Virus record (IMG/VR): IMGVR_UViG_3300031555_004349
Span: 32,001-96,000 of that record
Length of the DNA stretch: 64,000 bases
Strand: one strand, 5' to 3'
DNA from: a virus
Taxonomy: Duplodnaviria > Caudoviricetes
This document shows, piece after piece, positions 3,422-60,320 of this stretch (position 1 is its first letter; each line of letters begins with the position of its first letter). The notes beneath the pieces are model-generated. The model was not told the DNA's origin. It ran no database searches and was given only the letters and a program-made list of their open reading frames with translations. A program made the translations under genes and the position numbers.

Positions 3422-6400
3422 ATGGGCACAGGAAATTCGGGAAGATATACCTTTAGTACTGGTAGTACGGCTTTAAAAGGTTATGTAGATTGGACAGAAA
3501 CATATGATGATTCAACATATCTTACAACTAATCAAACTACAGTTACGCAAAAGGCATATATATACAGAACCAATACTTATAGTGGAAATTATAATATAGC
3601 TGCAAAATATACAAGAACATTTTATTTTGGTTCAGAAACAGTAGGAACAACTGCTAAAGCAACCCTTACAGTAGGACCAAATCCGCCAGGAGACCCTACA
3701 CTTGTATATGAAGCTAGTATGGTAATTACTCACGATGCAGACGGTGCAAAATCAATCACTTTAGGATTTGAAGCAGATACTCCAACTGTTGATGTTGGTG
3801 GTTACGATGTTTCTAAAGTAACTAGTACGGTAACTTTAATGACAGTTCCTAGAGCATCTTCTATAAGCAACACTCCAAGTTGGACTGCACCAGGAAGTGT
3901 GACCTGTAATATTAGTAGAAAAACTGATGCTTTTACTCACACAGTTTGGTTAGATGTAACAGATTCGAATGGAACTTGGCAAAATATAGGAAGTCTAACT
4001 GGACAAGGAGCAAGTGCAACTTTTAATACAGAAGCAGTAATGAAAAATGCTTATACTTATTTAGCTCAAAGAGCATCAACTTCAGCTCGTTTTCGTATTC
4101 AAACTTATAATGGTTCTACTGCAATTGGTAGTCAAGTTACAAGTGGTACTGGTACATGTTATGCAGCAAATGCTAATACAGCAACTGCGCCAACTTTCAC
4201 AGCTACGAATAGTGCAACTACGACAATTACAAAAGGCAATAGTTCTTTTACAAGTTATGCAGAAGTTTGGATAAATAGTCAATGTATTGGTAGTTATTCG
4301 GGAGGTGCTACTTCATGGAGTTTTAATACTGATGTTACACTTAGAACAAGATGTTTTACTGGATTAGCGCAAAATGCAAGTTTATCATATTTAGTTAGAA
4401 CTTGGACATACTATTCAGGAGTACAGGTTCAAGGTTATACAGATGCTTGGGGTACTTGTAATGCACCTGCAGTAAATACAATTACTGCACCAACTTGGAC
4501 AGGAGGATATCAATTTAGTTCGACAGTTTCTACAGCAGATAGTGCTTTATCGCGCGCTGTAACATTACAAATTGCTGATTCAAGTGGAAATTGGGTAACT
4601 GTTCAATCATCTGGAGTAACTAGTTCCACAACTATTACTTGGGATGGTTCAAGTACAACTAGAGATATAATTTTTCCAACTTTAAATGGAAGGACTTCAA
4701 CTAGTTCTAGATTTTTACTGACAACTTACTATAATGGTGTTCAAGTTAGAGGTGCAAACGCTGTAACTTCAGGAACTTGTACAGCACCTACTGCAATTAG
4801 TTGTAATGCTCCAACTTGGTATGCTAATCAAACTTATAGTATGAGTTTTAGCTATGCTTTTCCAAGTTGGCTTGAGTGTAGTTCTTATGTAGATGTTAAA
4901 GATAGTAGTGGAAGTTGGTATCGTATATTTAGTGGTGGTTTTTCAAATTATTTAACTGCAGCAATTGCATTTAATGCCTATACGGAAAAAAGAAAAGAAT
5001 GTTTTCAAGTGTTGGCACAAGCGGCTTCAAGGGAGACAAGAGCCTTAATTACAACTTATTATGTTTCAAGTTCAGGAACCTATGTTCAAGTTAGAAGTAC
5101 AGTAACAGTTTCTGGTACTTTAAATGCTCCAGCAGCGAGTACTTTAAGTACAACTCCTTCATGGATAGCAGGAGATTCAATGACTTGCAATATTTCTAGA
5201 GTAGATGATAATTTTACACATACTTTAGTAATTTCAGTTGGAGGGAAAACAAAAACAATAACTGGTATTGGAACTTCTACTACTTTTGGTACATCTGAGG
5301 CGGATAGAATTTTATTTTATGAAGCTTTAAACAGTGCAGCTTCAGCTTCTGTTTCAACACAATTAACAACATATTATTCTGGTGTGCAAGTTAGAACTGC
5401 AACGAGTGCGTCAGGTACATTATCCGCGCCATCGGTCTCAACTATTACCATTCCAACGTGGACTGCAGGTAATAGTTTTACTGCAACAATTACGCCATCG
5501 AAAGATTATTTAGTTAACTCAATTCAATTGAAAGTTAATAATACAGTAGTAGAAAAATATGATTATCAAACTGTTACCTCTATTGGTTTTATGAGTACTA
5601 CTGAACTAAGTATGTTAGCTTATCAAGCCCTTGCTCAACAAGCAAGTGCAACTGCAAGTTTTATAGTAACTATGTATTATAAAACAAGTAGTAATACTTA
5701 TATACAGGTAAATGCTTCTAAAACAACAAATGGAACTTGTACAGCTCTAGAGGCTAGTACAATTACTGCGCCTAACTGGACTGCAGGTTCAACTTTTACT
5801 GCAACTATTAGTAAAAAATCATTAAACTTATATGAAGTTGTAAGATTAAAAGTAAATGGACAATTGGTGCAAGAATATCCAATACAAGGTAGCACAAGTT
5901 TAACTTATGCTTTAACTTTTGCTAACACAAAAGATATTAATACAAAAATATATAGCGCTTTGGCGCAAGCAGCTTCAAAAACTGCGACATTAGAGATTGT
6001 TACTTATTTTGGTACTAGTACAACTAATGTACAACAAGTTAGAAGTACAGTTGTTGCAACTGGTGTTTGTAACGCTTCAGAAGCAGTAGTTGGAAACTTG
6101 ACTTTGAGTCAGACTCCTGCTATAATTGATAATACAGAGATAACTTGTAATTTAACTAAAGCATTATCAGATTATACAGTTGTTATTGATGTAAGTTGTA
6201 ACGGAGTTGTGATAACAAGTTTAACTCCTGCTGATACAGAAACAAGTGCAATATTTAATAGCGCAGATTATGTAAATGAATTATATCAATCTATTCCAAC
6301 ACAAAAAAGTGGTTCTTTACAATTCAAAGTAATTACTTATTACAATGGAGTACAAGTGCAACAGCCAAAAACAGTTGCAGTTGATATAAATGCTAACGAA

Positions 6401-51194: not shown

Positions 51195-51432
51195 AATAGC
51201 AGGAGAATTAGAAATTGATAAAATTATTATTGATGATAGAGATTTATCTGCAACTGCAATACTTTATCAAGCTTGTTTAGATATCCTAAACGATGGTAAT
51301 CTTTTAAGGCCTGTTCATAGTCATTTGTATAATAAGGACAAAAAAGAATTGCGTTTCTTTTCAAATGATGAAAATATGGAAGATTTTATAAAAAAGGAGA
51401 ATGAAAATGATACTAGAAAATCTACAAAATAA
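51148..51432 (+). CDS. Hypothetical protein
   Basis: GGAGG RBS. Confidence 0.6.
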
Positions 51433-52639
51433 TGACCCAGAAATTTGGGCACATATTCAAAACGAACTAAAGAGACAACAAGACACAATAGAATTAATTG
51501 CATCAGAAAATATAGTAAGTAAAGCAGTTATGGAAGCAATGGGTACTGTATTAACAAATAAATATGCAGAAGGCTATCCAGGAAAAAGATACTATGGTGG
51601 ATGTGAACATATTGATAAAATAGAACAATTAGCTATTGATAGGGCAAAGAAACTTTTTGGCGCAGAGCATGCAAATGTACAACCCCATTCTGGCGCACAA
51701 GCAAATATGGCTGTTTATCAAGCATTATTACAACCAGGCGACACGGTTTTAGGAATGAGTTTACAAAATGGTGGACATTTAACTCATGGCTCACCAGTTA
51801 ATCAAAGTGGTAAATTGTATAATTTTATTCCTTATGGTGTAAATCAAGAAGGAGTTATTGATTATAATGAATTAAGAGATTTAGCTTTACAACACAAACC
51901 AAAACTTATACTTGCTGGCGCGAGTGCATATTCAAGAGAAATTAATTTCGCTTTAATAAAGACAATTTGTGATGAGGTTGGAGCATTATTTATGGTAGAT
52001 ATGGCTCATATTGCTGGATTAGTTGCTGCAGGATTACATCAATCACCTGTTCCATATGCAGATGTAGTAACAACTACAACTCATAAAACTTTAAGAGGAC
52101 CTCGTGGTGGACTTATTTTATGTAAAGAACAATGGGCAAAGAAAATTGATAGTGCGGTTTTTCCTGGAACGCAAGGTGGACCTTTAGAACATATAATAGC
52201 CGCTAAGGCAGTGTGTTTTAAAGAAGCATCAAAACCGGAGTTTAAAATCTATCAAGAACAAATCATAACTAATACAGCTGTTTTAGCTGAAACATTAGCA
52301 GCAAATGGTTTCGATTTGATTTCGAATGGTACTGATAATCATTTAATTTTACTTGATTTAAGAAATAAAAATATAACAGGCTTAGAAGCTCAAGAAAGAT
52401 TAGAAAGAATTGGAATTGCTACTAATAAAAATGCGGTTCCAAATGATACTCAACCACCAATGATTACAAGTGGTTTAAGGTTAGGTACAGCCGCAATCAC
52501 TTCAAGAGGTTTTACTGAAGAAGAGGTTAAACTAATTGGTGAAATTATAGCCGCTTGTTTAACAGGAAATAAGAAATATAGTGAAAATGATTTAAGAATA
52601 ACAACTTTAAGTTTATGTAAAGACCACCCAATTTATTAG
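51407..52639 (+). CDS. glyA: Serine hydroxymethyltransferase
   Basis: [31 protein letters not shown] motif [13 protein letters not shown]; ATG 51407 fits the RBS spacing. Confidence 0.97.
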
Positions 52640-53184: not shown

Positions 53185-53439
53185 ATGATTAAAAGATTAC
53201 TTATTGTTTTAATTCTTTTAGGAATTTTAACTATGGTTTTTCTTCATTCACAAAGAACGGTTGAATGTTGGTGGGGAATAATGTATCCCACGCTTTCCTA
53301 TACCACTTTCGAAGATGATGAAAGAGATACGAGAGTTTCTTCAACAGAGCCACATTATATTTATTTACCTAAAAATCAAGTTGAAGAACCTGTTAAAATC
53401 AAATTCATTTTTGTTGAATGGTTAAAAGAATTATTTTAG
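53185..53439 (+). CDS. Secreted/membrane mini-protein resembling the SpoIIR C-terminus
   Basis: Signal/TM segment, then CWWGIMYPTL and VKIKFIFVEWL, similar to SpoIIR NWWCV.FPPL...V.F...E. Confidence 0.5.
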   Translation: MIKRLLIVLILLGILTMVFLHSQRTVECWWGIMYPTLSYTTFEDDERDTRVSSTEPHYIYLPKNQVEEPVKIKFIFVEWLKELF

Positions 53440-53453
53440 AAAGGAGAATTAGT

Positions 53454-54002
53454 ATGAGTAAAGTTTATTTTATTGCAGATACGCACTTTGGTCACGACAG
53501 AATAATTGGAATTTGTAATAGACCTTTCACTAATGTTGAGGAGATGAATACTCAATTAATTCAAAAATGGAATAATAAGGTATCTGATGAAGATACCGTC
53601 TACATATTAGGTGATTTTTGTTTTAAAATGAATAAGCAAGATGCAATTAAAGTTTTAAAACAATTAAAAGGTAAAAAAATTTTAATTAGAGGAAATCACG
53701 ACAAATATGCTGGTCAGCGTGATTTTGACAGTTGTTTTGAAAGAATTTGTGATTATACACAAATCACAGAAGAAGGACAACAAATTATTTTATGTCATTA
53801 TCCAATTATTGATTATGCAGGAATGTATTACGGCGCGAAAATGATTTATGGACATATTCATAATAAATATATTCCACATAAAGATATGTATTGTGTAAGC
53901 GTAGAATGTGTAAATTATGAACCAGTTAGTCTATTAGAAATTTTAGAAATTTATAAAAATAAAGAGGTTGAAACTCAAATTGATTGGGCTAAACCATTTT
54001 AG
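53454..54002 (+). CDS. Calcineurin-like metallophosphoesterase
   Basis: ADTHFGH, LGD, GNHD, HYP, GHIH. Confidence 0.88.
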   Translation: MSKVYFIADTHFGHDRIIGICNRPFTNVEEMNTQLIQKWNNKVSDEDTVYILGDFCFKMNKQDAIKVLKQLKGKKILIRGNHDKYAGQRDFDSCFERICDYTQITEEGQQIILCHYPIIDYAGMYYGAKMIYGHIHNKYIPHKDMYCVSVECVNYEPVSLLEILEIYKNKEVETQIDWAKPF

Positions 54003-54902: not shown

Positions 54903-55242
54903 GGGGGTATATTTGGTTTCGACCCTTATTGGAGATAAAAATAAGCAAGTAGTGGTCAGACAGGACACTTTAAAAGTCTGAAAAAAAAATAAAAGCAAAC
55001 GGTTTAATAGCTGCCTAGGCAGTAATTTAAATATATCACCTCCTTTCTCGAAGTATTAAAAGGGCAAAAGTATTTTTAATGGCTATAATAAAATACTTTC
55101 ACGGAAGAACATAGCTAATTAAATTTAAAAGATTTTGTTTATTTTTCTTTAATTTAATTTGTTACATAAAATAAACTAAACTTGTAGAAAATTTTTGTTA
55201 AAGGTAAGTGGCACAGCAGTTCGATTCTGCTTACCTCCACCA
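54903..55242 (+). ncRNA. ssrA: tmRNA; tag (A)ANGLIAA*
   Basis: 5' GGGGGTATATTTGGTTTCGAC; acceptor GGGGGTA/TACCTCC with G3-U; T arm GCAG-TTCGATT-CTGC; ACCA end; tag ORF 54995-55018. Confidence 0.92.
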
Positions 55243-55247
55243 AAGAA

Positions 55248-55312
55248 AAGGCGCACACAGCATTAAATCCGCCGAATAGGCACTAAATTTGGGATTTAGC
55301 AATTTGCGCCTT
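55248..55312 (+). ncRNA. ACAGCA-motif RNA, unit 0 (candidate Y-like RNA)
   Basis: AAGGCGCA-CACAGCA...TGCGCCTT terminal helix. Confidence 0.65.
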
Positions 55313-55324
55313 GTTTTTATAAAA

Positions 55325-55353
55325 TTGACTTTTATTTTAAAGCGTGTTATAAT
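55325..55353 (+). promoter_or_regulatory. Sigma-A-type promoter
   Basis: TTGACT-N17-TATAAT with extended TG. Confidence 0.72.
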
Positions 55354-55392
55354 AATTATAAGAAAATAAATAAAGAAAGAAGTTGATTAATT

Positions 55393-55617
55393 ATGAAACA
55401 AAGTACAACAGAAACAAGATTGTATTGCCCAAGATGTGGAATGGTTCACACGATTTTTAGAAAAACTGCAAAACAAAAGAAAGCAGGACACTATAAAAAT
55501 TTTTATTGCTATAAATGCGCACATACTCATAATCATATTGAGTTAAAAGAAAACTCTTATTCAAAAGAAGAATTAGCTCAAATGGTTGAAATAATGAAAA
55601 AAGAAAATAAATTTTAA
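55393..55617 (+). CDS. Zn-ribbon protein with ribosomal-L33-like spacing
   Basis: LYCPRCG...RK...K.FYCYKC..THNHIELK. Confidence 0.55.
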   Translation: MKQSTTETRLYCPRCGMVHTIFRKTAKQKKAGHYKNFYCYKCAHTHNHIELKENSYSKEELAQMVEIMKKENKF

Positions 55618-55619
55618 AT

Positions 55620-55710
55620 GTCAAGGTACTCAAGCTGGTGAAGAGGACGCACTGCTAACGCGTTAGGTCAGTAAAATGGCGCGTGGGTTCGAACCCCACC
55701 CTTGACGCCA
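55620..55710 (+). tRNA. tRNA-Ser(GCT)
   Basis: Acceptor GTCAAGG/CCTTGAC, G73, CCA; anticodon loop CT-GCT-AA; long variable arm. Confidence 0.92.
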
Positions 55711-55731
55711 ATTAGAAAGGTAGTGAGTAAA

Positions 55732-55926
55732 ATGGATATTGATGATGCTAAAAGAAAATTCAAGGATTGTAAAAAGTGTAAACATTTTTATGATTTAGAC
55801 TTTGATGGTTTTCATACTCTTTGTGCAGAATTACATTGTCATCTTTGTGCGGGAAACAGTGGTTGGTGCATTGATTATGAAGAAGGAGAAGCTCCAAAAG
55901 GAAAAGAAAAAGGAAGTTATAAATAG
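55732..55926 (+). CDS. Small Cys-rich protein
   Basis: Start MDIDD; the track start lies inside the tRNA. Confidence 0.55.
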   Translation: MDIDDAKRKFKDCKKCKHFYDLDFDGFHTLCAELHCHLCAGNSGWCIDYEEGEAPKGKEKGSYK

Positions 55927-55940
55927 AAAGGTGGTTAATT

Positions 55941-56150
55941 ATGCCTAAAAATATAATGAAATTTGAATTAGTAGATAATACAAGAAAAAATATATATAAT
56001 GAAAGTTGCAAAATGGAGAAAGCTTGGTATGGAGAAGAGTCAGATGGACAAATAATGAGTATAGACTCATATTATACAATGTGTAAAGAATTTGCAGCTG
56101 CAATGGGATTTTGTGAAAGCACAATAGAAGAGTGGTTTGGTGATTATTAA
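55941..56150 (+). CDS. Hypothetical protein
   Basis: RBS; coupled to the helicase start. Confidence 0.6.
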   Translation: MPKNIMKFELVDNTRKNIYNESCKMEKAWYGEESDGQIMSIDSYYTMCKEFAAAMGFCESTIEEWFGDY

Positions 56151-57274
56151 TGGATTACAATTTAACTGAAAAACAACAACAAGGATTAGACATTTGTATA
56201 AAAAGATATTTTAATGATGAACTTTATACAATAATAGCTGGTTATGCAGGTACGGGAAAATCTTATTTGGTTAACGCAATAGTTGATAAATTTGGTTTTA
56301 AAGAATATGAAATAGCATATGCTTGTTATACGGGTAAAGCCGCGCTAGTGTTACAAAAGCAAGGTAAAAATGCTATAACTTTACATAAGCTATTATATAA
56401 TTCCTATCCAAATGGTTTTGGAGGGTTTATTCATCGTCCAAAATTAAAGTTAGATTACGATTATAAATTAATCATTGTAGATGAAATTTCAATGTGTCCA
56501 AAAGAATTATGGAATTTATTAATGAAACACGGAGTATATGTAATTGGTTTGGGAGACCCATTTCAATTACCTCCAATCGGCGATGGGCTTAATTTATTAG
56601 ATAATCCTCATATATTTTTAACAGAAGTTATGCGTCAAGCGCTTGATAATGATATAATAAAATATTCTATGGAATTGCGCGAAGGTAAAGAATTAAAGCC
56701 AGGAATCAGAGGTAAAAACATACAAACTTATAGTAAAGATGAATTGACAACTGGTATGATGTTATGGGCAGACCAAATTCTTTGTGGGAAAAATACAACG
56801 AGGCGAGATTTGAATAAACAAATGAGAGAGCTACTAGGCAAAAAAGATATAATAGACGACAATGAAAAATTAATTTGTTTAAAAAATTATTGGGAATTTC
56901 CTTCTTATAAAGAAACTTTTTTAGTTAATGGTTTAATTGGTGAAGCAACTAATATAACTCTTTATAAAGGTTTAAAACGAATTAATACAGATTTTAAAAT
57001 AGAAAATAATGACTTTTTCAGAGGTTTGGTTTTAGATTATAAATTATTGGAAACAGGAAATCCTACAATTGTTAAAAATGAAAAAGGTAAAATAATACCT
57101 AGTGGAAAAATTGAAATGGATTATGGTTATGCTATTACTGTTCACAAAGCACAAGGTTCTCAATTTGATAAGGTATTAGTATACGATGAACATTTATATA
57201 ATGAAGAAAACCATAATAGATGGTTATATACAGCCATTACTCGCGCTGTAGATAAGGTGGTAGTAGTAATATGA
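56150..57274 (+). CDS. RecD/Dda-like SF1B helicase
   Basis: GYAGTGKS, VDEISM, GDPFQLPP, YAITVHKAQGSQF, LYTAITRA. Confidence 0.9.
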   Translation: MDYNLTEKQQQGLDICIKRYFNDELYTIIAGYAGTGKSYLVNAIVDKFGFKEYEIAYACYTGKAALVLQKQGKNAITLHKLLYNSYPNGFGGFIHRPKLKLDYDYKLIIVDEISMCPKELWNLLMKHGVYVIGLGDPFQLPPIGDGLNLLDNPHIFLTEVMRQALDNDIIKYSMELREGKELKPGIRGKNIQTYSKDELTTGMMLWADQILCGKNTTRRDLNKQMRELLGKKDIIDDNEKLICLKNYWEFPSYKETFLVNGLIGEATNITLYKGLKRINTDFKIENNDFFRGLVLDYKLLETGNPTIVKNEKGKIIPSGKIEMDYGYAITVHKAQGSQFDKVLVYDEHLYNEENHNRWLYTAITRAVDKVVVVI

Positions 57275-57717
57275 AAATAAATAAATATTTAAAAAAATTA
57301 GGATTAAAACAATATGATATGCCAGGATATTATGATGAAAAATTAGAAAATCATCCTCATTTGTGTGATACTCCTGGCGCGGACATAAGAAATAAAGAAG
57401 ATAAAGAAGGTTTTTGTGGGTATGAATTTTTTAATTTGGGAGATACTTTAGATTTGTATATTTATTCTAAATTATGTTGGTTTAGAGAACATTGCGCAGA
57501 TATAGTGACTCCAGGCTGTTTTTGTTCTTATCATACACAATCCGAAAAACAAAGACAAATGTCTCACAAAGCTTGGTTAAAAACATTAGATGAAATAATT
57601 GAAGGTTTTCGTATTTCAATTGTTGGTTTTACAGAAGGACAGGAAGGAATTGAAAAATTAAAAATTCAAAAAGCTCGTCACTTACTAGCAGAATTTTGGG
57701 ATTGTCTTTGGTATTAA
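57271..57717 (+). CDS. Phage hypothetical protein
   Basis: W...LDEIIEGF...LLAEFWDCLWY ending resembles a recurrent phage family. Confidence 0.6.
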   Translation: MKINKYLKKLGLKQYDMPGYYDEKLENHPHLCDTPGADIRNKEDKEGFCGYEFFNLGDTLDLYIYSKLCWFREHCADIVTPGCFCSYHTQSEKQRQMSHKAWLKTLDEIIEGFRISIVGFTEGQEGIEKLKIQKARHLLAEFWDCLWY

Positions 57718-57719
57718 AT

Positions 57720-57795
57720 GCATCCGTCGCCAAGTTGGCTAAGGCCCTGAGCTGCAACCTCAGTATCGTAGGTTCAAGTCCTACCGGGTGCTCCA
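57720..57795 (+). tRNA. tRNA-Cys(GCA)
   Basis: GCATCCG/CGGGTGC, U73, CCA; CTGAG-CT-GCA-AC-CTCAG. Confidence 0.93.
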
Positions 57796-57797
57796 AT

Positions 57798-57826
57798 TTG
57801 ACTTTTACTTTAATTTGAGTTATAAT
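57798..57826 (+). promoter_or_regulatory. Sigma-A-type promoter
   Basis: TTGACT-N17-TATAAT. Confidence 0.7.
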
Positions 57827-57847
57827 AAATTAAAGGAAGTGAGAAGA

Positions 57848-58150
57848 ATGAATGTTTTATATGTAGATGATTTAAGAATGCCTAAAGGACCTTATAGTTT
57901 TGACCATATTGCAATTGTTAGAAATTACAACGATGCTTTAAAAAAGATGGTTACAGAAAGATTTGACGCAATTGATTTAGACCACGACCTTGGTGAAGAT
58001 AAAACTGGTTATGATATAGTTAAATTTATAGTAGAAAAAGGTTTTAATTTTCAAACTATATATATTCATACTGCAAATCCAGTTGGTAGGCAAAATATGA
58101 TAGATTTATTACAAAAACATACAAGGTCAAGAATTGTAGTTTATTTTTAA
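57848..58150 (+). CDS. Cyclic-phosphate-processing receiver (cREC) domain protein
   Basis: LYVDDLR.P...DLDHDLG...TGYD...IHTANPVG..NM; real start MNVLY. Confidence 0.75.
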   Translation: MNVLYVDDLRMPKGPYSFDHIAIVRNYNDALKKMVTERFDAIDLDHDLGEDKTGYDIVKFIVEKGFNFQTIYIHTANPVGRQNMIDLLQKHTRSRIVVYF

Positions 58151-58154
58151 AAAG

Positions 58155-58183
58155 TTGATTTTAAATTAAATTTATAGTATAAT
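58155..58183 (+). promoter_or_regulatory. Sigma-A-type promoter upstream of the RNA array and vWA gene
   Basis: TTGATT-N17-TATAAT, about 18 nt before unit 1. Confidence 0.72.
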
Positions 58184-58201
58184 TAAATTAATAAATAAAT
58201 A

Positions 58202-58342
58202 GGGCTCACACAGCAAAGTATTTTATCTTATTAGGTAAAAGAAGAATTTTGTAAGTTACATTTACAAAATATCCAAAAATGTGCTACTTTTGTAGCTCCA
58301 AATGGATTTAATGTGTTGTTTGCTTCAAGGTGCGGCGAGCCC
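58202..58342 (+). ncRNA. ACAGCA-motif RNA, unit 1
   Basis: GGGCTC-ACACAGCAA...GAGCCC; several internal hairpins. Confidence 0.65.
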
Positions 58343-58376
58343 AGTAAAATGCCAAAATCCTTGAAAACAATACATA

Positions 58377-58529
58377 AGGGACACACAGCAAATTAACTTC
58401 GGTTAAAACAATTAATAGTCTTTAAGACTATAGGAAGCAGTAAAATGAGGCATAGAACAGTAAATTTGCATTGCGCAGGTTTACTATGTATCTGAGCCGA
58501 GACTGTTGCGAGTACTGGTTAATGTCCCT
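58377..58529 (+). ncRNA. ACAGCA-motif RNA, unit 2
   Basis: AGGGACA-CACAGCAA...TGTCCCT; internal cUUCGg tetraloop and a long hairpin. Confidence 0.68.
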
Positions 58530-58581
58530 AGTCGTTATATTGACAAGTACTCTATACACAGTTTTAATTAAGTTTATAATT

Positions 58582-58651
58582 TGTGGACATACAGCAATTT
58601 TATAATATTTTGGTTCTGATTTACAATCTGAAAAATAAATATTAGTCCGCA
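58582..58651 (+). ncRNA. ACAGCA-motif RNA, unit 3
   Basis: TGTGGAC-ATACAGCAA...GTCCGCA. Confidence 0.65.
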
Positions 58652-58659
58652 GTTTTAGA

Positions 58660-58756
58660 AAGGCACATACAGCAATTATACTTTCAAAAAGTTGGTTATC
58701 CTTGGTTCAATTCCAAGTCTTCGAGCCATTTCTTTCGAGGAATATTTGAGTGCCTT
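58660..58756 (+). ncRNA. ACAGCA-motif RNA, unit 4 (contains a tRNA T-arm)
   Basis: AAGGCAC-ATACAGCAA...GTGCCTT; CTTGG-TTCAATT-CCAAG at 58701-58717. Confidence 0.7.
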
Positions 58757-58790
58757 GTTTTATTTTAAAATAAGAAAATGGAGGTTTAGA

Positions 58791-60320
58791 ATGGAAGATA
58801 TATTTTTAGCAAGTTTAAAAAGAGAGACAAATGAAGCAATTACAGAAAATGGAGCATTAGCTTTTAATTCAACAAATTCAAGTTTATTAGATTTATTTGG
58901 TACAATTGGCGCACTTAGAAATAGACCTTCATCAGACGTAATAGATAAATTCACAAAAGCATTTTCAGAAGATAAATTATTAGCTATGAAAATGTTATTT
59001 TATGCAAGAAATATTAGAGGTGGATTAGGAGAAAGAAAAGTTTTTCGTACTATAATTCATTATATGGCAAATGTTCACCCTGATGTTATGAAGAAAAATA
59101 TTAACTTAGTTCCTTTTTTTGGAAGATGGGACGATTTATATGAGTTTGTGGGAACGTCATTAGAAGATGATGCGTTTGATTTTATTACTGTTCAATTAGC
59201 TATAGATGAGACTTTTATGGCTCATAATAAACCTATTAGCTTAATGGCAAAATGGTTAAAATCAACTTCTGGAGTTTCTGTTGAGTCTGCTAAATTAGGT
59301 AAGTTAACTGCTAAAAAATTAGGTTTAACTTATAAAGAATATAGACAAAAATTATCTAAATTAAGAAGTTATTTAAATATAGTAGAAACTAATATGAGTA
59401 ATGATAAATGGAATGAAATCATTTATCGTGAAGTTCCCGCGCTAGCTATGAAAAAATATAGAAACGCATTTAAAGAACATAATTTAGTAGAATTCAAAGA
59501 GTACATTGAAAAAGTTAAAAAAGGTGAAGAAACTATTAAAGCCGCAACTTTATATCCATATAATATTATGGAAAGTGCTGGTTTAAGAGATGACTATAAT
59601 GGTAAATTAAAATTAAGAACTTGGGACGAAATATTGGAAGAACAATGGAAAGCTTTACCTAATTATGTTGAAGGAGAAAACAATATAATGGTTATGGCTG
59701 ATACTTCTGGTTCAATGTCTGGTAGACCTTTAGCTACTTCTGTTGGTTTAGCAATTTATTTCGCTGAAAGAAACCAAGGTCCTTATAAAGATAAATTTAT
59801 TACCTTTGCAGGAGAACCAAAATACATTGAACTAAAAGGTACAAACTTAATGGAAAAAGTAGCTTGTATTCCTGAAATTAATACAAGAAATACTAATATA
59901 GAAGCAGCTTTTAATTTAATTTTAGATACTGCTATTCATAATAATTTACCACAAGAAAGTCTACCAAAAGCAATTGTTATAATTTCAGATATGGAATTTG
60001 ATAGTGCGGCTGACACAGATGCTTACAACTATTGGAGACGCTCAAGCTCAAATGAAGTAACTGAAAAACATAATAAATTAATGGAAGACTTAAATAATAA
60101 GTTTAGTGTAAATGGCTATAAAATGCCAAAAATTATATATTGGAATGTTGATTCTAGAAATGATATTTATCACGCAACTTGTGAACAACACAATGTTGCT
60201 ATGGTAAGTGGTCAATCTACATCTACATTTAAAACTGTATTAAAGTCAATAGATGAAGATGCGTTTGAAATGATGATAAACACTTTAAGCGACCCAATGT
60301 ATGATTTAGTTGAAGTATAA
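58791..60320 (+). CDS. Ro60/TROVE-like helical + vWA protein (DUF2828-type)
   Basis: TENGALA..ST.S.LLDLF, RNIRGGLGER, FGRWDDL, AKWL; MIDAS DTSGSM; TNIEAAF; ISDMEFD; YWNV. GGAGG RBS before ATG 58791; the track extension runs through the RNA array. Confidence 0.8.
   Translation: MEDIFLASLKRETNEAITENGALAFNSTNSSLLDLFGTIGALRNRPSSDVIDKFTKAFSEDKLLAMKMLFYARNIRGGLGERKVFRTIIHYMANVHPDVMKKNINLVPFFGRWDDLYEFVGTSLEDDAFDFITVQLAIDETFMAHNKPISLMAKWLKSTSGVSVESAKLGKLTAKKLGLTYKEYRQKLSKLRSYLNIVETNMSNDKWNEIIYREVPALAMKKYRNAFKEHNLVEFKEYIEKVKKGEETIKAATLYPYNIMESAGLRDDYNGKLKLRTWDEILEEQWKALPNYVEGENNIMVMADTSGSMSGRPLATSVGLAIYFAERNQGPYKDKFITFAGEPKYIELKGTNLMEKVACIPEINTRNTNIEAAFNLILDTAIHNNLPQESLPKAIVIISDMEFDSAADTDAYNYWRRSSSNEVTEKHNKLMEDLNNKFSVNGYKMPKIIYWNVDSRNDIYHATCEQHNVAMVSGQSTSTFKTVLKSIDEDAFEMMINTLSDPMYDLVEV

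What the first reader, a model, noticed from the sequence alone, without database searches (positions are those of the whole stretch)
55248..58756. ACAGCA units carry tRNA-fragment mimics (anticodon loops, D-like and T arms)
Seen in sequence: unit 0 has a D-arm-like hairpin GCC-GAATA-GGC, one A, then CTAAA-TT-TGG-GA-TTTAG (55283-55299). This is a 5-bp/7-nt anticodon arm with the tRNA-Pro(UGG) loop including G37; an alternative pairing with TTAAATCC is also possible. Unit 3 has TTCTGA-TT-TAC-AA-TCTGAA (58614-58632, one mismatch), resembling a tRNA-Val(UAC) arm. Unit 4 has a weaker ACT-TT-CAA-AA-AGT (Leu-like) followed by a perfect T arm, CTTGG-TTCAATT-CCAAG. None has an acceptor end with CCA. 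Established: YrlA-type Y RNAs contain tRNA-like domains, and hosts deploy anticodon nucleases against phage. Inference: the units may display anticodon loops as decoys or sensors for anticodon nucleases or tRNA-modifying enzymes, forming an expandable decoy library. Units 1-2 show no convincing anticodon arm.
Basis: partly seen in the sequence, partly recalled or inferred. Interest (0 to 1): 0.8.

Follow-up and report, generated by a model that had tools for sequence, protein, structure and literature searches.

The report
Phage Y-like RNAs displaying tRNA parts
Five small RNA genes beside a phage gene for a Ro60-shaped protein share one conserved "handle", and at least two of them carry a faithful copy of a tRNA anticodon arm or T arm; the same pattern recurs in this RNA family in many phages and may let the phage bait host enzymes that cut or handle tRNA.

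Summary
Partly confirmed, and more interesting at family level than in the window alone. All five units are closing-stem + ACAGCA(A) RNAs next to a DUF2828-vWA gene whose model has the Ro60/TROVE fold. Unit 0's arm (55283-55299) is real. Its stem covaries in relatives, and its loop UUUGGGA is identical to the anticodon loop of the phage's own tRNA-Pro. Unit 4's T arm (58701-58717) is real and covaries. Unit 0's "D-like" hairpin is a real hairpin but has no D-loop features. Unit 3's arm is a conserved hairpin whose anticodon reading is not significant on its own. Unit 4's "Leu-like" arm is not supported.

In 152 distinct unit interiors from about 77 phage loci, perfect 5-bp/7-nt hairpins with a loop identical to a real anticodon loop number 34, against 0.23 in shuffles. 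T loops number 32 against 0.15. Other members are whole tRNA bodies in which the handle replaces the anticodon arm. No Rfam family or paper found describes this.

The decoy idea is plausible but untested; recruitment of repair or modification enzymes is a live rival. This scan has already reported the same handle/DUF2828 system on other DNA (notes from at least 48 genomes), with similar conclusions.

The parts
54903..55242 (+). tmRNA gene; unit 0 starts 6 nt after its CCA end (context)
   Evidence: Rfam RF00023, 96.5 bits
55248..55313 (+). Unit 0. Handle 5' strand 55248-55255, box ACAGCA 55257-55262, hairpin 1 55271-55281, Pro-type anticodon-arm mimic 55283-55299, handle 3' strand 55305-55312, then G.
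   Evidence: Sequence; fold z -3.9; six orthologues with a covarying arm; loop identical to the phage tRNA-Pro loop
57848..58150 (+). cREC_REC (cyclic-phosphate-processing receiver) gene directly upstream of the array
   Evidence: Pfam PF20274, E 2e-23; same synteny in relatives
58155..58183 (+). sigma-70-like promoter match ahead of units 1-4
   Evidence: 10 of 12 consensus positions; a consensus match only
58202..58344 (+). Unit 1. Handle GGGCUC/GAGCCC, box 58210-58216; several interior hairpins with no tRNA-like arm.
   Evidence: orthologues keep the handle; hairpin loops vary in size
58377..58531 (+). Unit 2. Handle AGGGACA/UGUCCCU, box 58385-58391; large interior with no conserved tRNA-like arm. 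The 5-bp/7-nt hairpin at 58415-58431 is not kept in the closest relative.
58583..58652 (+). Unit 3. Handle GUGGAC/GUCCGC, box 58591-58597; hairpin 58614-58632 with loop frame UU-NNN-AA (UAC here).
   Evidence: handle: 3 of 6 pairs compensatory; arm invariant
58660..58757 (+). Unit 4. Handle AAGGCAC/GUGCCUU + G, box 58669-58675, small AU hairpin 58680-58692, conserved UGGUUAU 58693-58699, T arm 58701-58717, 8-bp hairpin 58718-58741.
58791..60320 (+). DUF2828 + DUF7788/vWA protein (509 aa), Ro60/TROVE-like fold, MIDAS residues conserved; presumed protein partner of the units.
   Evidence: Pfam; AF2 model pLDDT 80; Foldseek top hits are TROVE/Ro60 structures, E 3e-7 to 6e-5; invariant D304, S306, S308, T368, D400

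Best explanation
The five units are small non-coding RNAs of a Y-RNA-like family that partners the phage's Ro60-shaped DUF2828-vWA protein.

Each RNA has two parts:
- A constant 'handle': a 6-8 bp closing helix whose 5' strand is followed by single-stranded A-Y-ACAGCA(A), and whose 3' strand is followed by G.
- A variable 'cargo' held inside the helix.

Inferred: the protein binds the handle, as Ro60 binds the Y RNA stem, and the cargo is displayed.

Shown: across the family the cargo is very often a piece of tRNA. It may be an anticodon stem-loop whose 7-nt loop is identical to a real one, a T arm, both together as a mini-tRNA, or a whole acceptor/D/T body in which the handle replaces the anticodon arm. 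In this window, unit 0 carries a Pro(UGG)-type anticodon arm, unit 4 a T arm, and unit 3 possibly a Val/Thr-type arm. Units 1-2 carry other hairpins.

Inferred function: the particle presents tRNA parts to proteins that recognise tRNA. Most likely it acts as bait that competes for, or traps, host anticodon-loop nucleases (or other tRNA-directed defence enzymes) during infection. It would work alongside the phage's own tRNAs and its RNA-repair genes (cREC, metallophosphoesterase, RNA ligase).
For: Handle and gene linkage:
- In 84 loci, ACAGCAA occurs 130 times on the gene strand in the 250 nt upstream of the DUF2828 start. Distant bins hold about 0-7 each, and the opposite strand has almost none upstream.
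- 75 of 77 non-redundant loci hold 1-12 boxes.
- The box lies beside DUF2828 genes in Bacillus, Listeria, Enterococcus and Campylobacter phages, and downstream of the gene in Staphylococcus and Mycobacterium phages.
- Handle stems differ between units yet always pair.

Protein: Ro60/TROVE fold plus vWA.

Cargo:
- In 152 distinct interiors, 34 perfect 5-bp/7-nt hairpins have a loop identical to a real anticodon loop, in 23 distinct stem-loop sequences. Shuffles give 0.23 +/- 0.45, with a maximum of 2 in 300.
- T loops number 32 against 0.15.
- Density of such arms upstream on the gene strand is 59 in 117 kb, against 4 on the other strand.
- There are 179 non-tRNA T arms upstream on the gene strand against 5 on the other strand.
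- 58 of 64 hairpin-capped handles are followed by a T arm; the ones read are tRNA bodies lacking an anticodon arm.

Window:
- Unit 0's arm covaries, and its loop equals the phage tRNA-Pro loop.
- Unit 4's T arm covaries.

Context: cREC, a metallophosphoesterase and an RNA ligase in this genome; RtcB beside the gene in other phages. Host nucleases that cut tRNA anticodon arms, countered by phage tRNAs, are established (PMC11464382).
Against: - No binding, expression or cleavage data exist: no RNA-seq holder was listed, and RNA ends are unknown.
- Protein-handle binding is inferred from co-location only.
- A stoichiometric decoy must compete with abundant cellular tRNA.
- Many members display the elbow/acceptor with no anticodon arm. 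Units 1-2 here show no tRNA feature. A single 'anticodon bait' role therefore cannot explain all cargo.
- The mimic stems differ from those of the phage tRNAs, so enzymes that read the stem would not be fooled.
- Felix-O1-like phage EC6 has the gene but no box in the 700 nt upstream.
- Many of the sampled loci are related gut phages, so the counts are not independent events.
Confidence: 0.45

Rival explanations
1. Same particle, different purpose. The tRNA-like cargo recruits tRNA repair, maturation or modification enzymes (RNA ligase/RtcB, cREC, CCA-adding enzyme, RNase P/Z, TrmD, Tgt, t6A or i6A enzymes) to the Ro-like ring. The ring then handles damaged tRNA or RNA. The RNA is an adaptor rather than a decoy, as Y RNA tethers Ro60 to PNPase.
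For: - Y RNAs act as tethers in the known Ro60 systems, and the phage phiLo Ro60 with its Yrl RNAs binds host PNPase (PMC12135203).
- YrlA is modified and processed by tRNA enzymes (PMC4201824).
- The gene sits beside cREC, RtcB abuts it in L003, and RtcB lies 1.3 kb away in Listeria phage LMTA-94.
- Elbow-only and acceptor-bearing members suit enzymes that read the elbow or acceptor.
- The commonest mimicked loops (Asn, Ser-GCU, Lys, Thr; Tyr, Phe, Cys; Pro) all belong to tRNAs with a modified position 37 or 34 (established knowledge), so they could be substrates.
Against: - An isolated anticodon arm is not needed to recruit a ligase or an elbow reader.
- The anticodon triplet changes between close relatives while the loop frame stays (unit 3; GUU versus GCU among related gut phages). 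This looks more like target-chasing than housekeeping.
- No direct data either way.
Confidence: 0.3
2. The tRNA resemblances in this window are chance or mere stabilising hairpins. The units are Y-like RNAs, but their interiors have no tRNA-related role.
For: - Units 1-2 have no tRNA feature.
- Unit 3's arm is no better than 43% of shuffles.
- The first hairpin of unit 4 and the 'D-like' hairpin of unit 0 fail on comparison.
- The interiors are AU-rich, and U33/A37-like loops arise easily.
Against: - Within-window p is 0.011 for the real-loop arm and 0.008 for the T arm.
- Both arms covary and keep their loops in relatives.
- Family-wide enrichment is more than 100-fold over shuffles.
- Strand and position are specific.
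Confidence: 0.08
3. The units are cis-acting leader or processing elements, for example sites for autoregulation of DUF2828 translation or RNase cleavage signals in a tRNA-rich transcript, or decaying relics of tRNA genes.
For: - Units 1-4 lie between a promoter-like site and the gene start on the same strand.
- Units 0 and 4 are followed by U-runs.
- tRNA-like shapes can direct RNase P/Z cuts.
Against: - Unit 0 lies 3.5 kb away, behind the tmRNA.
- The units lie downstream of the gene in Mycobacterium and Staphylococcus phages.
- Handles are embedded in otherwise intact tRNA bodies.
- Covariation and conserved loops argue against relics.
- An anticodon arm alone is not an RNase P/Z signal.
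Confidence: 0.1

Closest known systems
Bacterial and phage Ro60 (Rsr/TROVE) with YrlA-type Y RNAs (Rfam RF02553; Chen et al. 2014, PMC4201824)
   Same: - Small RNAs are encoded beside, and on the strand of, a ring-plus-vWA protein of the Ro60 fold.
- Each is a closing stem plus a displayed module.
- That module mimics tRNA (T arm, D arm, acceptor-like stem).
- There are several RNAs per locus.
- The neighbourhood is RNA repair.
- Some family members (Enterococcus phage EFDG1) hit the YrlA model at 34-45 bits.
   Different: - The protein is Pfam DUF2828/DUF7788, not TROVE; no TROVE match exists in this genome.
- The conserved element is single-stranded ACAGCAA after the 5' strand, not the GNCGAA(N)G site.
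- The window units give no YrlA hit at E<=10.
- Cargo includes isolated anticodon arms and permuted forms with open acceptor ends, which the YrlA description does not include.
Thermus phage phiLo Ro60 with Yrl1/Yrl2 (PMC12135203; PDB 9KOP, 9L5Y)
   Same: A phage-encoded Ro60-fold protein with Y-like RNAs directly upstream. These are the best structural matches to the model.
   Different: The phiLo RNAs were picked by the CGAA motif and are reported to bind PNPase. No tRNA-part cargo or ACAGCAA box is described.
Anticodon-arm mimicry in the E. coli thrS mRNA operator (established knowledge, not checked here)
   Same: An isolated hairpin copies a tRNA anticodon loop so that a tRNA-binding protein recognises it.
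   Different: It is a cis-regulatory element of one synthetase gene. It is not a trans RNA family on a protein scaffold and has no swappable repertoire.
Phage answers to tRNA-cutting defences: T5 tRNA-Lys against PARIS (PMC11464382); T4 Pnk/Rnl1 against PrrC (established)
   Same: The conflict is the same (host nucleases that read the anticodon arm), and the genomic setting is the same (phage tRNA islands, RNA repair genes).
   Different: Those are functional replacement tRNAs or repair enzymes. Here the RNAs cannot decode: they have no acceptor end or no anticodon arm.

Membership tests
YrlA Y RNA (Rfam RF02553) | Score at or above the family gathering cut-off (69 bits) | tested here: not met
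   No YrlA match on the window units even at E<=10. Related units in phage EFDG1 reach only 34-45 bits.
YrlA Y RNA (Rfam RF02553) | Encoded within about 4 kb of, and on the strand of, a Ro60 orthologue | tested here: met
   Units 1-4 end 34 nt before the gene and unit 0 lies 3.5 kb upstream, all on the same strand. The protein has the Ro60 fold, but it belongs to Pfam DUF2828, not TROVE.
YrlA Y RNA (Rfam RF02553) | Rsr-binding stem carrying the GNCGAA(N)G motif (PMC4201824) | tested here: not met
   The conserved element is A-Y-ACAGCA(A), invariant CAGC in 219 distinct contexts selected by a CAGC-containing search pattern. No GNCGAA is present in the handles.
YrlA Y RNA (Rfam RF02553) | tRNA-like domain in the order T arm, capped acceptor-like stem, D arm | tested here: not met
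   None of the five window units has it; unit 4 has only a T arm. It is present in other family members: L098, L099, L129.
tRNA | Cloverleaf detected by ARAGORN or Rfam RF00005 | tested here: not met
   No tRNA call overlaps any unit.
Anticodon stem-loop mimic | 5-bp stem, 7-nt loop with U33 and purine 37, loop identical to a real anticodon loop, stem supported by covariation | tested here: met
   Unit 0: UUUGGGA equals the phage tRNA-Pro loop, and 4 of 5 pairs are compensatory. Unit 3: 6 of 7 loop identity to tRNA-Val, one mismatch in the stem, no covariation, p 0.43, so it is inconclusive. Unit 4, first hairpin: not met.
T arm | 5-bp stem closed by G-C, 7-nt loop UUCRANN | tested here: met
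   Unit 4, 58701-58717. The loop stays UUCRANY, and 2 of 5 pairs are compensatory in 8 relatives.
D arm | 3-4 bp stem with a loop carrying A14, R15, G18-G19, A21 | tested here: not met
   The loop of the unit 0 hairpin is GAAUA, AAUA, AGAAA, GAAC or ACCUUA in relatives, with no GG. Unit 4 has a conserved UGGUUAU strand just 5' of the T stem, without a stem. A D-loop-like role for it is untested.
ACAGCAA-handle RNAs of DUF2828 proteins (the family as defined here and in earlier notes of this scan) | 6-8 bp closing helix, 5' strand followed within 1-3 nt by ACAGCA(A), on the strand of and near a DUF2828 gene | tested here: met
   All five units meet it, with handle covariation in orthologues. 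A covariance model built from other phages was too weak to serve as a test.

The most novel reading that the evidence does not exclude
A phage Ro60-like ring uses a swappable library of handle-tagged RNAs as a modular anti-defence device. The RNAs carry isolated anticodon arms, T arms or anticodon-less tRNA bodies. Each cargo baits a particular host tRNA-directed nuclease, or another tRNA-reading immune protein, onto the particle. There it is trapped or neutralised, possibly through the vWA/MIDAS domain. The anticodon triplet of a unit changes quickly between related phages to follow the host's nuclease repertoire.
Probability: 0.25. Interest if true: 0.9.

Novelty: new variant of a known kind. 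Interest (0 to 1): 0.8.

Why it matters
Ro60/Y-RNA particles are known from animals, bacteria and a few phages, but what the tRNA-like part of bacterial Y RNAs is for remains open.

This is a second, very widespread phage branch. The protein occurs in 709 phage records, and more than 6,000 relatives were found in metagenomes. It has its own RNA handle, and its cargo is openly modular: exact copies of anticodon loops, T arms, or whole tRNA bodies minus the anticodon arm.

This gives a testable statement of what the particle is aimed at, namely proteins that read particular parts of tRNA. Culturable models are available: Listeria, Enterococcus, Staphylococcus, Bacillus and Mycobacterium phages.

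If the bait reading is right, it would be a new RNA-based counter-defence against the growing list of tRNA-cutting immune systems. It could also serve as a natural catalogue of which tRNAs those systems target in different hosts. It would further explain many 'odd tRNAs' and unannotated gaps in phage tRNA islands.

Tried and rejected
- Rfam (gathering and E<=10) on the units: no family matched.
- The search for related loci with the single protein: no close relatives in IMG/VR. An alignment was needed.
- A simple closing-stem caller is not discriminating on its own: 47% of random positions find a 6-bp partner within 280 nt. The handle evidence therefore rests on orthologue and paralogue covariation and on position. 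A5 was selected for pairing, so its 100% paired figure is by construction.
- Covariance model R1, built from 33 short units of other phages, was too weak. Window units 4 and 3 scored 16.2 and 13.7 bits (E 0.3 and 1.2), units 0-2 were not found, and a chance site at 5790 scored higher.
- 16-mer pattern scans of IMG/VR for orthologues of units 0 and 4 gave mostly chance hits. They yielded eight further handle units but no orthologues.
- Sequencing runs: no RNA holder was listed, so expression and RNA ends could not be examined.
- The profile search of PDB sequences did not reach Ro60. The fold search did.
- Rejected: the single-sequence MFE pairing for unit 0 (UAAAUCC/GGAUUUA), because it is not conserved in relatives.
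- Rejected: a 5-bp/7-nt hairpin in unit 2 (58415-58431), because it is not kept in the closest relative.
- Literature searches for DUF2828, YrlA, Ro-like phage proteins and anticodon mimics or decoys found no description of this RNA family.
- Complex prediction was not used, since it does not take RNA.

Full report
**What is there**

The window comes from a complete 118-kb phage record with terminal repeats, 30% G+C, 21 tRNA genes and a tmRNA. The finding spans five small non-coding units on the + strand.
- Unit 0 (55248-55313) starts 6 nt after the tmRNA (54903-55242).
- Units 1-4 (58202-58757) fill the gap between a sigma-70-like promoter match (58155-58183) and a 509-aa gene (58791-60320).

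Every unit has a 6-8 bp closing helix. Its 5' strand is followed within 1-2 nt by ACAGCA(A), and its 3' strand is followed by G. All five fold better than their shuffles (z -2.0 to -3.9). No Rfam family matches any unit, even at E<=10.

**The neighbouring protein**

The gene product matches Pfam DUF2828 and DUF7788, plus a weak vWA hit. An AlphaFold model (pLDDT 80) finds TROVE/Ro60 structures as its best PDB matches. These are phage phiLo Ro60, Xenopus Ro and Deinococcus Rsr, at E 3e-7 to 6e-5 and TM about 0.5. vWA domains follow in the ranking. The MIDAS residues are invariant in 25 homologues. The genome has no canonical TROVE gene and no RtcB.

Genes of the RNA-repair type are present:
- a cREC gene directly upstream of the array;
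- a metallophosphoesterase at 53418-54002;
- an RNA-ligase-family ORF about 10 kb downstream.

The protein family is very common in phages. It occurs in 709 GenBank phage records from many hosts and has more than 6,000 relatives in metagenomes.

**The handle is a family trait**

In 84 loci that encode relatives of the protein, ACAGCAA occurs 130 times on the gene strand within 250 nt upstream of the start and 46 times in the next 250 nt. Elsewhere there are only a few per bin, and the other strand has almost none upstream. Of 77 non-redundant loci, 75 hold 1-12 boxes.

The box with its helix also lies beside the gene in other phages:
- Bacillus phage Thrax2, Listeria LMTA-94, Enterococcus EFDG1 and Campylobacter F375 (upstream);
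- Staphylococcus CF1 and Mycobacterium Loadrie (downstream).

The downstream cases argue against a pure 5'-leader role. Felix-O1-like EC6 shows no box in the 700 nt upstream.

In 219 distinct contexts found with a CAGC-containing pattern, the core CAGC is therefore fixed by the search, and the flanking A residues are 86-92% conserved. Handle stems differ from unit to unit yet pair. In orthologues, 3 of 6 pairs (unit 3) and 1 of 7 pairs (unit 4) show compensatory changes.

Twelve syntenic relatives (64-94% protein identity) were fetched.

Unit 0:
- In the arm at 55283-55299, 4 of 5 pairs change on both sides.
- The loop is UUUGGG(A/U) in five of six relatives. The sixth has a loop that still keeps U33 and A37.
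- The loop is identical to the anticodon loop of the phage's own tRNA-Pro(UGG); the stems differ.
- The alternative pairing favoured by single-sequence folding is not conserved.
- The 'D-like' hairpin also covaries, but its loop varies from 4 to 6 nt and has no GG, so it is not D-like.

Unit 3:
- The hairpin, its 1x1 mismatch and the frame UU-NNN-AA are kept in eight of nine relatives.
- The triplet reads UAC, CGC, UGU (4 times), UUU or UGG.
- The stem is invariant, so there is no covariation.
- The arm could equally be a longer helix with a 3-nt loop.

Unit 4:
- The T arm covaries (2 of 5 pairs) and keeps a UUCRANY loop.
- A UGGUUAU strand just 5' of it is conserved.
- The following 8-bp hairpin covaries (5 of 8 pairs).
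- The 'Leu-like' arm is not kept.

Shuffling the five interiors of the window gives these figures:

| Feature | Observed | Expected | p |
|---|---|---|---|
| Real-loop anticodon arm | 1 | 0.012 | 0.011 |
| T arm | 1 | 0.008 | 0.008 |
| Unit-3-type arm | 1 | 0.57 | 0.43 |

In 152 distinct closed-unit interiors (9.7 kb), 5-bp/7-nt hairpins number 114, against 40 +/- 6.5 in dinucleotide shuffles.
- Hairpins whose loop is identical to one of 61 real anticodon loops taken from 439 tRNAs of the same loci number 34, against 0.23 +/- 0.45 (maximum 2 in 300 shuffles).
- T loops number 32, against 0.15.

The mimicked loops are those of Asn-GUU (18 units, 6 different stems), Ser-GCU (6), Tyr (4), Lys (4), Phe (2), Thr (2), Cys (1) and Pro (1). 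Together they make 23 distinct stem-loop sequences.

Outside annotated tRNAs, such arms occur 59 times in 117 kb upstream on the gene strand. They occur 4 times on the other strand and about 0.04 per kb elsewhere. Of the 59, 47 lie within 130 nt downstream of a box. Many loci are related gut phages, so these are not independent events. Even so, the variety of stems and hosts makes chance untenable.

**Other cargo types**

Upstream of the gene there are 179 T arms outside called tRNAs on the gene strand, against 5 on the other strand.

In 58 of 64 cases where the handle helix is capped by a short loop, a T arm follows. Reading these cases shows complete tRNA bodies: acceptor stem, D arm and T arm. 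Their anticodon arm is replaced by 'helix-loop-helix-ACAGCAA'. This is a circular permutation of the closed units.

Other closed units hold T arm, capped acceptor-like stem and D arm in YrlA order. Examples are EFDG1, Loadrie and L129, and the EFDG1 ones hit Rfam YrlA at 34-45 bits, below the 69-bit cut-off. Some units are mini-tRNAs combining a GG strand, an anticodon arm and a T arm.

The family therefore displays tRNA parts in general. The anticodon arm is one frequent cargo, not the only one.

**What it most likely is and does**

Shown:
- a conserved handle tied to a Ro60-fold protein gene;
- cargo that is strongly enriched for exact tRNA parts;
- in this window, a Pro-type anticodon arm and a T arm under selection.

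Inferred by analogy with Ro60/Y RNA (PMC4201824, PMC12135203): the protein binds the handle and the cargo is presented to proteins that read tRNA.

I favour bait for host anticodon-arm nucleases, for three reasons. Such defences and phage counter-measures are established (PMC11464382). The gene keeps company with RNA-repair genes. The triplet changes between close relatives while the loop frame stays.

The main rival is an adaptor that recruits repair, maturation or modification enzymes. It explains the elbow and acceptor cargo better. Nothing here measures binding, expression or cleavage.

**Comparison with what is known, and novelty**

The closest known system is Ro60/Rsr with YrlA Y RNAs. 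Membership fails on the Rfam score, on the Rsr-site motif and, for the window units, on the T/acceptor/D domain. The general logic is the same. I found no paper or Rfam family describing the ACAGCAA handle, its link to DUF2828 or the isolated anticodon-arm cargo. One published screen reports that the cluster-L mycobacteriophage member of this protein family is moderately toxic when over-expressed (PMC13148394).

Earlier notes of this scan describe the same handle/DUF2828 system in at least 48 other genomes. One of them also reports anticodon-arm cargo, mostly Lys, Asn and Ser. My counts were made before I read those notes, and they agree.

**Verdict**

Unit 0's arm and unit 4's T arm are solid. 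Unit 3 is plausible. The D-like and Leu-like calls are rejected. I rate this a new variant of a known kind, of high interest.

Noticed in passing
genome 96466-96580 (L005 about 1466-1580), about 470 nt beyond the window end: A YrlA-order tRNA mimic: closing stem, T arm with a UUCGAAU loop, acceptor-like stem capped by GAAA, and a D arm with GG. Its 5' strand is followed by AUACCC rather than ACAGCAA. It gives no Rfam YrlA hit at E<=1. It may be a sixth partner RNA with a divergent handle.
   Followed up: partly
window 58505-58522 (3' part of unit 2); L087 about 330-400, L090 and L092 after the tmRNA: A GCGAGUACUGG(U/A)UAA stretch in unit 2 recurs in a separate small element that follows the tmRNA in relatives. 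Its meaning is unknown.
   Followed up: no
genome 95630-95930, 96200-96360, 97230-97930 (L005): G+C-rich non-coding stretches between tRNA genes in a 30% G+C phage, with no Rfam match at E<=1. They are candidate structured RNAs.
   Followed up: no
window 58693-58699: UGGUUAU directly 5' of the unit 4 T stem is conserved in 7 of 8 relatives. UGGUUAA strands also occur in mini-tRNA-like units of other phages (L067, L083). It may be a D-loop-like GG partner for the T loop.
   Followed up: partly
L003 610-1905 and 1898-3382; L097 5340-6500: An RtcB ligase gene overlaps the start of the DUF2828 gene in one gut phage contig. In Listeria phage LMTA-94, RtcB lies 1.3 kb downstream of the DUF2828 gene.
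   Followed up: partly
window 51401-52639: The phage encodes a full-length serine hydroxymethyltransferase (Pfam SHMT, E 1e-170).
   Followed up: no
Mycobacterium phage Wilder record, region matching L099 3960-4290: Part of the handle-RNA region downstream of the Ro-like gene is annotated as tRNA-Asn in one record and as a hypothetical protein in others. These RNAs are therefore being mis-annotated in public phage genomes.
   Followed up: no
L086 6287-6436: A 49-aa ORF with a weak ArfA (alternative ribosome rescue factor) hit in the closest relative. This phage group also carries a tmRNA.
   Followed up: no
window 58415-58431: Unit 2 holds a perfect 5-bp/7-nt hairpin with loop CUUUAAG (triplet UUA). 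It is not kept in the closest relative and more likely forms a 7-bp helix with a 3-nt loop.
   Followed up: yes
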